NCBI RefSeq assembly: GCF_003334255.1
Contig: NZ_QOWU01000142.1
From: Escherichia coli
GTDB taxonomy: Bacteria > Pseudomonadota > Gammaproteobacteria > Enterobacterales > Enterobacteriaceae
Direction: 5' to 3' (one strand)
DNA: 1,978 nucleotides
Part shown: positions 1,477 to 1,498 of the stretch, one piece after another
Position numbering within the stretch: position 1 is the stretch's first letter
Layout of the letters: the number at the start of each line of letters is the position of its first letter
Program-made: the position numbers and the translations under genes
Notes under the pieces: generated by a model
The model's database searches: none
Seen by the model: only the letters and a program-made list of their open reading frames with translations
What the model was told of the DNA's origin: nothing

Positions 1477-1498
1477 CGATATGGGAATTCCCATATCG
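1477..1498. repeat. 22-bp perfect palindrome CGATATGGGAATTCCCATATCG centred on an EcoRI site
   Basis: Plus 1477-1498 equals its own reverse complement across all 22 positions. It lies between the stop of the small ORF at 1507 and the putative hok promoter -35, about 12 bp upstream of it. Confidence 0.9.

What the first reader, a model, noticed from the sequence alone, without database searches (positions are those of the whole stretch)
1477..1498. 22-bp perfect palindrome just upstream of the hok promoter
CGATATGGGAATTCCCATATCG is a perfect dyad, long for chance. It lies between the stop of the 34-aa ORF and the putative hok -35. On neither strand is it followed by a U-tract, so it is not a typical intrinsic terminator. 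It could be an operator for a dimeric regulator (perhaps phage-encoded, tying hok expression to prophage state), a transcript-stabilising 3' hairpin for the upstream operon, or a recombination site.
Basis: seen in the sequence. Interest (0 to 1): 0.45.

Follow-up and report, generated by a model that had tools for sequence, protein, structure and literature searches.

The report
Orphan KilA-N gene palindrome beside hok
The 22-bp palindrome is real, but it does not look like a hok control site: it is a stray copy of a DNA palindrome that normally sits inside a family of phage KilA-N genes, is conserved as DNA from cyanobacteria to E. coli, and has spread on its own into many phages.

Summary
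The perfect 22-bp dyad CGATATGGGAATTCCCATATCG is at 1477-1498, centred 57.5 bp upstream of the hok mRNA start. It is not part of the hok/sok module: many homologous hok loci lack it, and another hok lineage has it 18 bp further away. It occurs once in the 42-kb prophage and has no U-tract.

The dyad plus about 11 nt (1477-1509) matches an internal piece of KilA-N-domain genes, where it encodes D-M-G-I-P-I-S. Related E. coli prophages carry a full KilA-N + BstA-C-terminal gene in the same slot, divergent from hok. Here only this fragment remains.

In those genes the palindrome is conserved as nucleic acid. Synonymous sites are nearly frozen. Both arms show compensatory changes, some altering amino acids. 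In Bacteroidota the same 22-mer is read in another frame. The exact 22-mer occurs in 37 species-representative genomes across many phyla.

Free-standing copies exist in about 40 lytic Dhillonvirus records (presence/absence polymorphism), a Hafnia phage, and linkers of unrelated phage genes.

Most likely it is a two-fold symmetric recognition site, possibly for KilA-N dimers and analogous to the aba self-immunity DNA of BstA. That mechanism is inferred, not shown. This copy may be inert.

The parts
1477..1498 (.). Perfect 22-bp palindrome CGATATGGGAATTCCCATATCG; an orphan copy of the palindrome embedded in KilA-N genes
   Evidence: Searches show presence and non-randomness. The identical 22-mer lies inside KilA-N ORFs and in other phage contexts.
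1477..1509 (+). 33-nt fragment derived from a KilA-N gene (reads DMGIPIS**I on the + strand; 31/33 identical to the genes in L272 and L259). The unit shared with PPompW-type prophages runs to about 1516.
   Evidence: Local alignment. blastn hits of window 1477-1509 to L272 and L259 at 93.9%. PPompW loci share 1477-1516 and then diverge.
1460..1465 (-). hok promoter -35 hexamer TTTGCG (inferred)
   Evidence: Read from the sequence. The spacing is 17 bp to TAGAAT. The hexamer is conserved in hok loci that lack the dyad.
1437..1442 (-). hok promoter -10 hexamer TAGAAT (inferred)
   Evidence: Read from the sequence. It lies 6 nt upstream of the start of the Rfam-aligned hok mRNA at 1430.
1256..1430 (-). 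5' part of hok mRNA with the sok-complementary region (Rfam RF01794)
   Evidence: 117.6 bits, E 1.2e-27, full model 1-157.
1106..1261 (-). hok toxin CDS (annotated hokD in RefSeq); the overlapping mok ORF runs to 1318
1507..1611 (-). 34-aa hydrophobic ORF. Its last codons and stop codon lie inside the gene-derived fragment.
   Evidence: RefSeq CDS WP_001278450.1 at L001 21507-21611.
1647..1730 (-). 27-aa hydrophobic ORF. Its homolog directly follows the full KilA-N gene in L250 and abuts the hok module in 933W.

Best explanation
The dyad is an orphan copy of a 22-bp palindromic DNA element. This element normally lies at a fixed position inside the coding sequence of one subfamily of KilA-N (APSES-type DNA-binding) domain genes. 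In E. coli prophages those genes combine KilA-N with the C-terminal domain of the abortive-infection protein BstA.

Related prophages carry such a gene in this slot of the nin region, divergent from hok. In this prophage the gene is gone and only 33-40 bp around the palindrome remain, in the original orientation. I put this identity at about 0.85 confidence.

The palindrome is maintained by selection on the nucleic acid, not on the peptide it encodes. The most likely mechanism is inferred and carries about 0.4 confidence: it is a sequence-specific, two-fold symmetric recognition site, and dimers of the KilA-N domain are the most plausible ligand.

By analogy with aba, the DNA self-immunity element embedded in bstA, a copy on a replicating phage genome could mark it as 'self' or titrate the protein. 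Free-standing copies in other phages, including this prophage, would then act as recognition or decoy sites. The dyad does not look like a regulator of hok, and the copy in this window may have no function at all.
For: Shown:
(1) The hok module ends at about 1473-1476. 933W-type and other hok loci lack the dyad.
(2) Window 1477-1509 is 31/33 identical to KilA-N genes.
(3) L250 has hok, then a divergent 257-aa gene, then a homolog of the 27-aa ORF. It matches the window on both sides: window 1018-1442 and 1651-1770.
(4) The protein has Pfam KilA-N (E 1.4e-26), and its C-terminus hits the PADLOC BstA model (6e-21). The AlphaFold model (pLDDT 93.7) matches the Mbp1 and PCG2 APSES DNA-binding domains.
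(5) In 30 genes with less than 88% DNA identity, the six degenerate codons inside the palindrome use one codon in 82-100% of sequences. The median for 49 other conserved columns is 46% (Mann-Whitney p = 6e-5).
(6) Five of 11 pairs show changes on both arms: 10 cells against 1.7 expected, 0 of 500 shuffles.
(7) Saprospiraceae and Lewinella KilA-N genes (Pfam E 5e-19) carry the same 22-mer at the homologous place but read as RYGNSHI.
(8) The exact 22-mer is in 37 species-representative genomes from many phyla, with GC from 27% to 69%. The chance expectation is 0.02.
(9) When the whole 774-nt gene is searched against phage records, every credible partial hit outside KilA-N genes maps to nt 166-208, the palindrome region; the one exception is a weak Pelagibacter hit at E 0.8. 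The hits include about 40 lytic Dhillonvirus records. There the palindrome is a 0/1/2-copy polymorphism next to the helicase-primase gene and an iteron-rich region.

Inferred: the identity of the ligand and the immunity or decoy role. The analogy is with aba in PMC8585504.
Against: No experiment links this palindrome to any protein. aba of BTP1 is not a palindrome, lies at the 5' end of bstA, and shares no significant sequence with this element. The BTP1 bstA locus has nothing similar.

The KilA-N + BstA-C proteins themselves have not been shown to be defence proteins. Near-invariance of the 22-mer across phyla is not what an arms-race decoy predicts.

One gene lineage (L214 type, CGATATGCATATTCCCATATCG) keeps 7-bp arms with an 8-nt spacer. 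That fits a hairpin better than a fixed-spacing operator.

The Bacteroidota genes change the encoded peptide but keep the DNA, so that peptide cannot be what reads the site.

For the window's own copy there is no independent sign of constraint. 127 of 128 flank-anchored copies are intact, but the neighbouring DNA is equally conserved in this young clade.

The window's prophage has no KilA-N or BstA gene. The full gene is in only 137 of 5426 E. coli genomes, against 625 for the orphan.
Confidence: 0.6

Rival explanations
1. Inert relic. The fragment is debris from loss or replacement of the KilA-N gene next to hok. It spread with the hok cassette by recombination among lambdoid prophages and does nothing here.
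For: The flanks are gene-derived and the slot is syntenic. In this clade the palindrome is no better conserved than its right flank: 1 of 22 against 8 of 120 segregating sites. There is no KilA-N gene in this prophage. Types A and B share the same 40-bp unit, so they may trace to a single event.
Against: When the whole gene is searched against phage records, the only part found outside full-length genes is the palindrome region. Independent orphans keep different flanks but always the whole 22-mer. Dhillonviruses and ORF linkers carry it with no gene-derived flank. The fragment is in 625 E. coli genomes with up to 4 copies each.
Confidence: 0.3
2. RNA (or single-stranded DNA) hairpin. The 9-bp stem with an AAUU loop acts at the transcript level. 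It could protect the 3' end or provide a processing site for the upstream pR-operon message, or insulate hok from read-through. Inside KilA-N genes it could control translation or decay.
For: The hairpin is stable: -12.9 kcal/mol as RNA, z = -4.3, and -7.6 kcal/mol as DNA. Covariation keeps the pairing. The few one-sided changes are G-U on the sense strand. The L214-type variant keeps a stem with a larger loop. Several orphans lie 4-20 nt after a stop codon: the window, 'rolling', the Hafnia phage and L037.
Against: A generic hairpin does not explain why the same 22 letters are kept from Brachyspira (27% GC) to Azospirillum (69% GC). There is no U-tract. No Rfam family covers it. Copies inside the linkers of long ORFs make no sense as 3'-end hairpins.
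Confidence: 0.15
3. Operator that controls the hok promoter. A dimeric regulator bound at -57.5 would couple hok transcription to prophage state.
For: The dyad lies just upstream of the -35, centred at -57.5. The KilA-N gene and hok are neighbours in several prophage lineages.
Against: It is absent from 933W-type and other hok loci that have the same promoter. In another hok lineage (L013, L054) it is 18 bp further upstream, which puts it on a different helical face. It is unique in the prophage. The same element sits in lytic phages and in genomes without hok.
Confidence: 0.05
4. Recombination or replication site. The palindrome would be a hotspot or recognition site for a recombinase, nuclease or primase, such as a cruciform or a single-strand initiation hairpin. 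That would create mosaic joints next to it.
For: In the window the hok-module boundary (1473-1476) and the A/B-type divergence point (about 1516) flank it closely. In Dhillonvirus it sits beside iterons and the helicase-primase gene, flanked by a 32-nt duplication, with 0, 1 or 2 copies.
Against: Joints lie at variable distances (2-22 nt) and never inside the palindrome. The hok-module boundary is elsewhere in L250. No recombinase is consistently associated. A fixed position inside a gene across phyla is hard to reconcile with a recombination hotspot.
Confidence: 0.07

Closest known systems
aba (anti-BstA) element of Salmonella prophage BTP1 (Owen et al. 2021, PMC8585504)
   Same: Both are short DNA elements embedded in or overlapping the coding sequence of a prophage gene with a KilA-N-like N-terminus and a BstA C-terminal domain. 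aba acts as DNA, works when carried on replicating phage DNA, and can be transplanted to other phages. The gene neighbourhood is also the same in some prophages, directly downstream of cI (L284 and L022).
   Different: aba of BTP1 is 63 bp long, spans -29 to +34 of bstA, has terminal CCCGCC direct repeats and is not a palindrome. There is no sequence similarity beyond a 7-mer, and BTP1 has no such palindrome. The palindrome tracks the Pfam KilA-N domain rather than the BstA C-domain, since it is also found with other C-termini. aba elements are reported to be cognate and variable, whereas this 22-mer is nearly invariant. No function has been tested.
Protein-binding sites inside the binder's own gene, for example the lambda ori iterons within gene O (textbook knowledge, not tested here)
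   Same: It is a dyad-symmetric DNA site under selection inside an ORF, so codon choice is constrained by the DNA function.
   Different: It is a single site rather than an iteron array. The KilA-N gene has no known link to replication initiation. Binding has not been shown.
Phage repressor operators (lambda OR/OL type)
   Same: It is a perfect two-fold symmetric site of about 20 bp in a lambdoid prophage, close to a promoter.
   Different: Operators recur in sets near the regulated promoters and vary with immunity type. This site is unique in the prophage and is conserved across phyla.
hok/sok cis elements (tac, fbi, ucb/dcb, sok promoter)
   Same: It is adjacent to the hok promoter.
   Different: It lies outside the conserved hok mRNA and outside the conserved hok module.
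Sequence-specific hairpin sites read in folded form (integron attC, IS200/IS605 ends, REP elements)
   Same: Palindromy is maintained by compensatory change, and copies are scattered in mobile DNA.
   Different: No associated integrase, TnpA or RAYT was seen. The copies are single rather than paired ends. In E. coli there are only 1-4 copies per genome, all in prophages.

Membership tests
hok/sok type I toxin-antitoxin locus (cis elements) | Lies within the conserved hok mRNA / sok region | tested here: not met
   The Rfam RF01794 match spans 1430..1256 and the dyad is at 1477-1498.
hok/sok type I toxin-antitoxin locus (cis elements) | Present, at a fixed distance, in homologous hok loci | tested here: not met
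   It is absent in 933W (L002), L004 and L005, where homology ends at about 1473-1476. It is 18 bp further from the -35 in the L013/L054 lineage.
Intrinsic (Rho-independent) terminator | G+C-rich stem-loop followed by a U-tract | tested here: not met
   The scan finds only the hok terminator at 1037-1020. No T-run follows the dyad on either strand.
Prophage operator set | The same or a similar dyad recurs near regulated promoters of the prophage | tested here: not met
   There is a single match in the 42-kb prophage locus, even allowing 3 mismatches.
Palindrome embedded in KilA-N genes (family defined here) | 22-mer CGATATGGGAATTCCCATATCG or a symmetric variant | tested here: met
   It is identical to the copies in KilA-N genes of E. 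coli prophages, cyanobacteria, Firmicutes and others.
Palindrome embedded in KilA-N genes (family defined here) | Lies at the D-M-G-I-P-I-S position of an intact KilA-N ORF | tested here: not met
   On the + strand the frame reads DMGIPIS followed by two stop codons. There is no KilA-N ORF in the window or the prophage. It is therefore an orphan copy, not a gene copy.
Palindrome embedded in KilA-N genes (family defined here) | Flanks and genomic slot derive from a KilA-N gene | tested here: met
   31 of 33 nt are identical, including 9 of 11 nt beyond the palindrome. Both sides are syntenic with L250, which holds the full gene.
aba (anti-BstA) self-immunity DNA | Lies within or overlaps a bstA locus | tested here: inconclusive
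   Gene copies lie in KilA-N + BstA-C genes. The window copy lies in no gene, and canonical bstA of BTP1 lacks it.
aba (anti-BstA) self-immunity DNA | Sequence or architecture of aba-BTP1 (63 bp, terminal CCCGCC direct repeats) | tested here: not met
   There are no direct repeats, and only the 7-mer CCATATC is shared.
aba (anti-BstA) self-immunity DNA | As DNA on a replicating element, suppresses the cognate defence protein | not testable with these tools
   This needs phage plating and phagemid assays with the KilA-N+BstA-C protein.
REP/BIME-type extragenic palindromes of E. coli | Many chromosomal copies outside mobile elements | tested here: not met
   There are 1-4 places per genome, in 625 of 5426 genomes, all in the same prophage context.

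The most novel reading that the evidence does not exclude
The 22-bp palindrome is the cognate DNA ligand of an ancient KilA-N subfamily and works as a 'self' tag. The protein, in E. coli prophages a BstA-like abortive-infection protein, spares replicating DNA that carries the tag. The tag is written into the protein's own coding sequence, so gene and tag cannot be separated. Other phages, both lambdoid prophages such as this one and lytic Dhillonviruses, have captured bare copies as anti-defence decoys.
Probability: 0.25. Interest if true: 0.9.

Novelty: new variant of a known kind. Interest (0 to 1): 0.72.

Why it matters
KilA-N is one of the most widespread DNA-binding domains of phages and large DNA viruses. 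I know of no defined binding site for the phage members, and the paper searches here found none.

A 22-bp sequence that is kept letter-for-letter across phyla inside these genes is a concrete candidate ligand. It survives a change of reading frame and is repaired by compensatory substitutions.

If it works like aba of BstA, it would extend the principle of an immunity element written into the defence gene to a second, much larger family. The bare copies in 11% of complete E. coli genomes (mostly STEC prophages) and in about a quarter of Dhillonvirus records would then be anti-defence decoys.

That has practical relevance for choosing therapeutic phages. It also gives natural test pairs: Dhillonviruses with 0, 1 or 2 copies.

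For annotation, it warns that this dyad next to hok should not be read as a hok operator.

Tried and rejected
1. Operator-set idea. I searched the 42-kb prophage for the 22-mer and the 18-mer core with up to 3 mismatches. Only the one copy was found.

2. Terminator. The consensus scan and inspection of the flanks gave nothing.

3. Known RNA family. Rfam at E <= 1 found nothing over the palindrome in the window, in a full gene locus, in a cyanobacterial locus or in a Dhillonvirus.

4. Part of the hok module. Rejected by comparison with 933W and other hok loci.

5. Identity with aba of BTP1. Rejected: the BTP1 bstA locus has no match even at 8 mismatches.

6. Codon bias or protein constraint as the cause of conservation. 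Rejected by the codon statistics, the compensatory changes that alter amino acids, and the alternative reading frame.

7. Search bias as the reason that only palindrome-containing relics were seen. Addressed by searching the whole 774-nt gene against phages and plasmids at E <= 1. Partial hits outside KilA-N genes fall only on the palindrome region.

8. Polymorphism test for constraint on the hok-linked copies. Uninformative, because the clade is too young.

9. Literature. There were no hits for the sequence itself, for BstA + KilA-N + palindrom*, or for KilA-N with binding-site terms. The library is limited to open-access papers and bioRxiv.

10. Plasmids. Only three E. coli plasmid records carry an orphan copy.

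Full report
OBSERVATION

Window 1477-1498 is CGATATGGGAATTCCCATATCG, a gapless perfect palindrome with 11-nt arms. About 5e-4 such dyads are expected in 1978 bases, and 1 of 3000 shuffles reached this length.

The window is part of a lambdoid prophage integrated next to yccA in E. coli JE86-ST05 (100% match). All genes here run on the minus strand, in the pR-operon direction: replication genes, then DUF551 fragments, a 27-aa ORF, a 34-aa ORF, the dyad, hok/sok, a 92-aa ORF, DUF968 (ydfU), rusA and Q.

The Rfam hok/sok model aligns to 1430..1256 at 117.6 bits. This places the hok mRNA start at about 1430, the -10 TAGAAT at 1442..1437 and the -35 TTTGCG at 1465..1460. The dyad centre is therefore at -57.5. 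The stop codon of the 34-aa ORF (1507-1509) is 9 nt from the dyad.

NOT A hok ELEMENT, NOT A TERMINATOR, NOT AN OPERATOR SET

Homology between this hok module and those of 933W and two other phages stops at about 1473-1476, immediately next to the dyad. Those loci have unrelated sequence where the dyad would be.

In another hok lineage (L013, L054) the palindrome is present but 29 nt from the -35 instead of 11 nt. There is no T-run on either strand, and the scan finds only the hok terminator at 1037-1020. The dyad is unique in the 42-kb prophage even with 3 mismatches allowed. Rfam has nothing over it.

WHAT IT IS HOMOLOGOUS TO

About 77 were hok-linked. In many of the rest the core lies inside long ORFs, in frame, as C GAT ATG GGA ATT CCC ATA TCG = D-M-G-I-P-I-S, about 15 codons before a QGTWVHP motif.

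These ORFs are KilA-N domain proteins (Pfam PF04383, E 1.4e-26). The C-terminal half of the E. coli type hits the PADLOC BstA model (6e-21) and is 32% identical to BstA of Salmonella phage BTP1.

An AlphaFold model of the domain (pLDDT 93.7) has as its best solved matches the APSES DNA-binding domains of Mbp1 and the PCG2-DNA complex. In the model, DMGIPIS spans the end of a helix, a three-residue turn and the start of the short helix that precedes the beta-hairpin.

The window's + strand reads DMGIPIS, two stop codons, then I. Positions 1477-1509 are 31/33 identical to such genes, including 9 of the 11 nt beyond the palindrome.

THE SLOT

In the E. coli prophage contig L250, hok (803-958, minus strand; mRNA start at about 1128) is followed by a divergent full-length 257-aa KilA-N+BstA-C gene (1483-2256, plus strand). 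The palindrome is at about 1654-1675. Next come a homolog of the 27-aa ORF and a DUF551-like gene.

The window matches L250 on both sides: 1018-1442 at 92%, 1651-1770 at 76% and 1879-1957 at 89%. The window therefore has the same slot, with the gene replaced by 208 bp that keep only the palindrome fragment in the original orientation.

The same gene lies in the nin region of phage vB_EcoS-673R7. In PhiR5_2 and L022 it lies directly after cI, which is the position of bstA in BTP1. PPompW-type prophages share 1477-1516 with the window and then diverge. The hok cassette plus this 40-bp unit therefore travels together. The window's own prophage has no KilA-N or BstA gene.

THE PALINDROME IS CONSERVED AS NUCLEIC ACID

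(a) Codon choice. I took KilA-N loci retrieved through peptide patterns, which are blind to codon choice. From these I kept 30 genes with less than 88% DNA identity. The degenerate codons within the palindrome are almost fixed: GAT 26/26, GGA 23/28, ATT 27/29, CCC 29/30, ATA 26/27 and TCG 19/23. In 49 other conserved columns the top codon has a median share of 0.46 (Mann-Whitney p = 6e-5).

(b) Compensatory change. On 35 distinct 45-nt segments, 93% of cells pair. Five of 11 pairs show changes on both arms: 10 cells against 1.7 expected, 0 of 500 shuffles. Slid controls drop to 27-50% pairing. Examples are TGATACGGGATGCCCCGTATCA, CAATATGGGAATTCCCATATTG, AGATATTGGAATCCCAATTTCT and CGAAACGGGGATTCCCGTATCG. 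Several of these change amino acids (M to T with I to V; D to N with S to L). A Calothrix locus has the gene copy plus a paralogous upstream fragment that carries the compensated variant.

(c) Alternative reading frame. In Saprospiraceae and Lewinella genomes the identical 22-mer lies at the homologous position of KilA-N genes but is read as E-RYGNSHIA. These genes hit Pfam at E 5e-19 and are 44-50% identical to standard members. Small indels lie on either side of the palindrome.

(d) Breadth. The exact 22-mer occurs in 37 of the species-representative genomes. They span Cyanobacteria, Alpha- and Betaproteobacteria, Magnetococcales, Brachyspira, Firmicutes, Bacteroidota and Enterobacterales, with locus GC from 27% to 69%. 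About 0.02 hits are expected by chance.

FREE-STANDING COPIES

I searched the whole 774-nt gene against 50,697 phage records at E <= 1. The search found full genes and, otherwise, partial hits that fall on nt 166-208, the palindrome region, apart from one weak Pelagibacter hit at E 0.8. The prevalence of palindrome-containing fragments is therefore not an artefact of how I searched.

About 40 of the hit records are Dhillonviruses, lytic siphophages of E. coli. There the palindrome lies about 20 nt after the helicase-primase stop codon, beside a non-coding region rich in iterons: TGTCCCGC six or seven times, plus GCAACCAAT repeats. It is a polymorphism. HK578 has none. 'rolling' has one copy, as a 54-nt extra segment made of the 22-mer plus a 32-nt duplicated flank. 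PNS1 has two tandem copies.

A Hafnia lambdoid phage has a copy in its nin region. Other independent orphans keep different lengths of gene-derived flank on the left or the right, but always the whole palindrome. Some lie in frame in hypervariable linkers of unrelated phage proteins. One example is a Sak4-like ATPase whose homologs lack it.

In complete E. coli genomes the window-type orphan is in 625 of 5426 genomes. There are 1072 places, up to four per genome, mostly in STEC. The full gene is in 137 genomes. Plasmids rarely carry it.

INTERPRETATION

Shown: the dyad is an orphan fragment of a KilA-N gene, and it belongs to a palindrome family under strong selection at the nucleic-acid level.

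Inferred: the function. Sequence invariance combined with two-fold symmetry points to sequence-specific recognition by a symmetric ligand. The only protein always present with the gene copies is the KilA-N protein itself, and its fold is a DNA-binding fold.

The closest precedent is aba of BstA. aba is a DNA element that overlaps the bstA coding sequence. It exempts the carrier phage from BstA-mediated abortive infection and works when moved to other phages or onto multicopy plasmids (PMC8585504). On that analogy, bare copies in other phages would be recognition or decoy sites.

Several points weigh against this reading:
- aba-BTP1 is unrelated in sequence, architecture and position.
- The KilA-N+BstA-C proteins are untested.
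- An arms-race decoy should diversify, but this 22-mer hardly varies.
- The L214-type variant fits a hairpin better than a fixed-spacing operator.
- For this particular copy, nothing distinguishes selection from recent common descent.

A transcript-level hairpin (-12.9 kcal/mol) remains possible. A hok operator is unlikely.

NOVELTY

I found no paper containing the sequence, and none linking KilA-N or BstA to a palindrome, in the open-access and bioRxiv library. No Rfam family covers it.

I rate it a new variant of a known kind, namely DNA elements embedded in the coding sequence of a phage defence or regulatory gene. If the aba analogy fails, it may be something not yet described.

LIMITS

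IMG/VR scans stop at 120 rows, and the related-locus tool keeps 80 loci. Counts are therefore lower bounds and samples are partly redundant. All functional statements are inferences from comparative sequence data.

Noticed in passing
window 1016-1097 (minus strand): There is a sub-threshold Rfam match to the Salmonella prophage sRNA IsrK (27.1 bits, gathering score 50). It overlaps the 3' end and terminator of the hok transcript. The same match appears in L250 (33.2 bits).
   Followed up: no
window 1507-1611 and 1647-1730 (minus strand): Two very small hydrophobic ORFs (34 and 27 aa) lie just upstream of hok. The 34-aa ORF has a strong AGGAGG Shine-Dalgarno sequence and borrows its last codons and stop codon from the KilA-N-derived fragment. 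A homolog of the 27-aa ORF abuts the hok module in 933W and follows the KilA-N gene in L250.
   Followed up: partly
window 1502-1509; KilA-N genes just after the palindrome: A second mini-dyad follows the palindrome: TGAATTCA in the window and GAATTAATTC in many genes. The codons for L-I-Q after the palindrome also show raised codon conservation (ATT 0.86, CAA 0.83). The conserved DNA element may therefore extend about 12 nt beyond the 22-mer.
   Followed up: partly
L286 2280-2400 (Escherichia phage rolling): The non-coding region beside the palindrome has six or seven TGTCCCGC iterons and five GCAACCAAT repeats, downstream of the helicase-primase gene. It looks like a replication origin or a regulatory array. 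The Sodalis phage SO-1 record annotates the equivalent stretch as 'region B', made of direct, inverted and palindromic repeats.
   Followed up: no
L293 about 535-590 (Tolypothrix campylonemoides): A 36-bp nested perfect palindrome, CCCGTATCGATATGGGAATTCCCATATCGATACGGG, is followed by AATTCCCGCATCG. This forms an array of half-sites CGATA(T/C)GGG outside any KilA-N ORF. A second near-copy lies 4.2 kb away.
   Followed up: no
L298 2005-3537 (Calothrix sp.): The palindrome-bearing KilA-N ORF ends in a ribbon-helix-helix-like tail. That tail is identical to the tail of the neighbouring small protein next to a ParA-like gene, which suggests a plasmid-partition context. An upstream paralogous fragment carries the compensated variant GGATACGGGAATTCCCGTATCG.
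   Followed up: partly
L296, L299, L301/L058, L302, L308, L309/L116, L321: All seven copies that lie inside long non-KilA ORFs are in the DMGIPIS frame, although none of the three frames of the 22-mer has a stop codon. One copy sits in a 2380-aa ORF of a 69% GC Azospirillum genome. This is unexplained.
   Followed up: partly
L022 4228-4992 and 10624-10645: One prophage contig carries two copies: a KilA-N+BstA-C gene directly downstream of a lambda-like cI (palindrome variant with ATC), and a hok-linked orphan copy 5.8 kb away.
   Followed up: no
L250 1135-1170 versus window 1443-1476: hok modules recombine at different points. In L250, homology with the window ends at the -10 hexamer, and a different -35 (TTGGCA) is used. 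hok promoters are therefore themselves mosaic.
   Followed up: no
L001 21727-22635 (window 1727-1960 and beyond): RefSeq marks two DUF551 fragments, a frameshifted ORF, an Ea22-like gene and a DUF4752 gene as pseudogenes upstream of the window region. This part of the prophage appears to be decaying.
   Followed up: no
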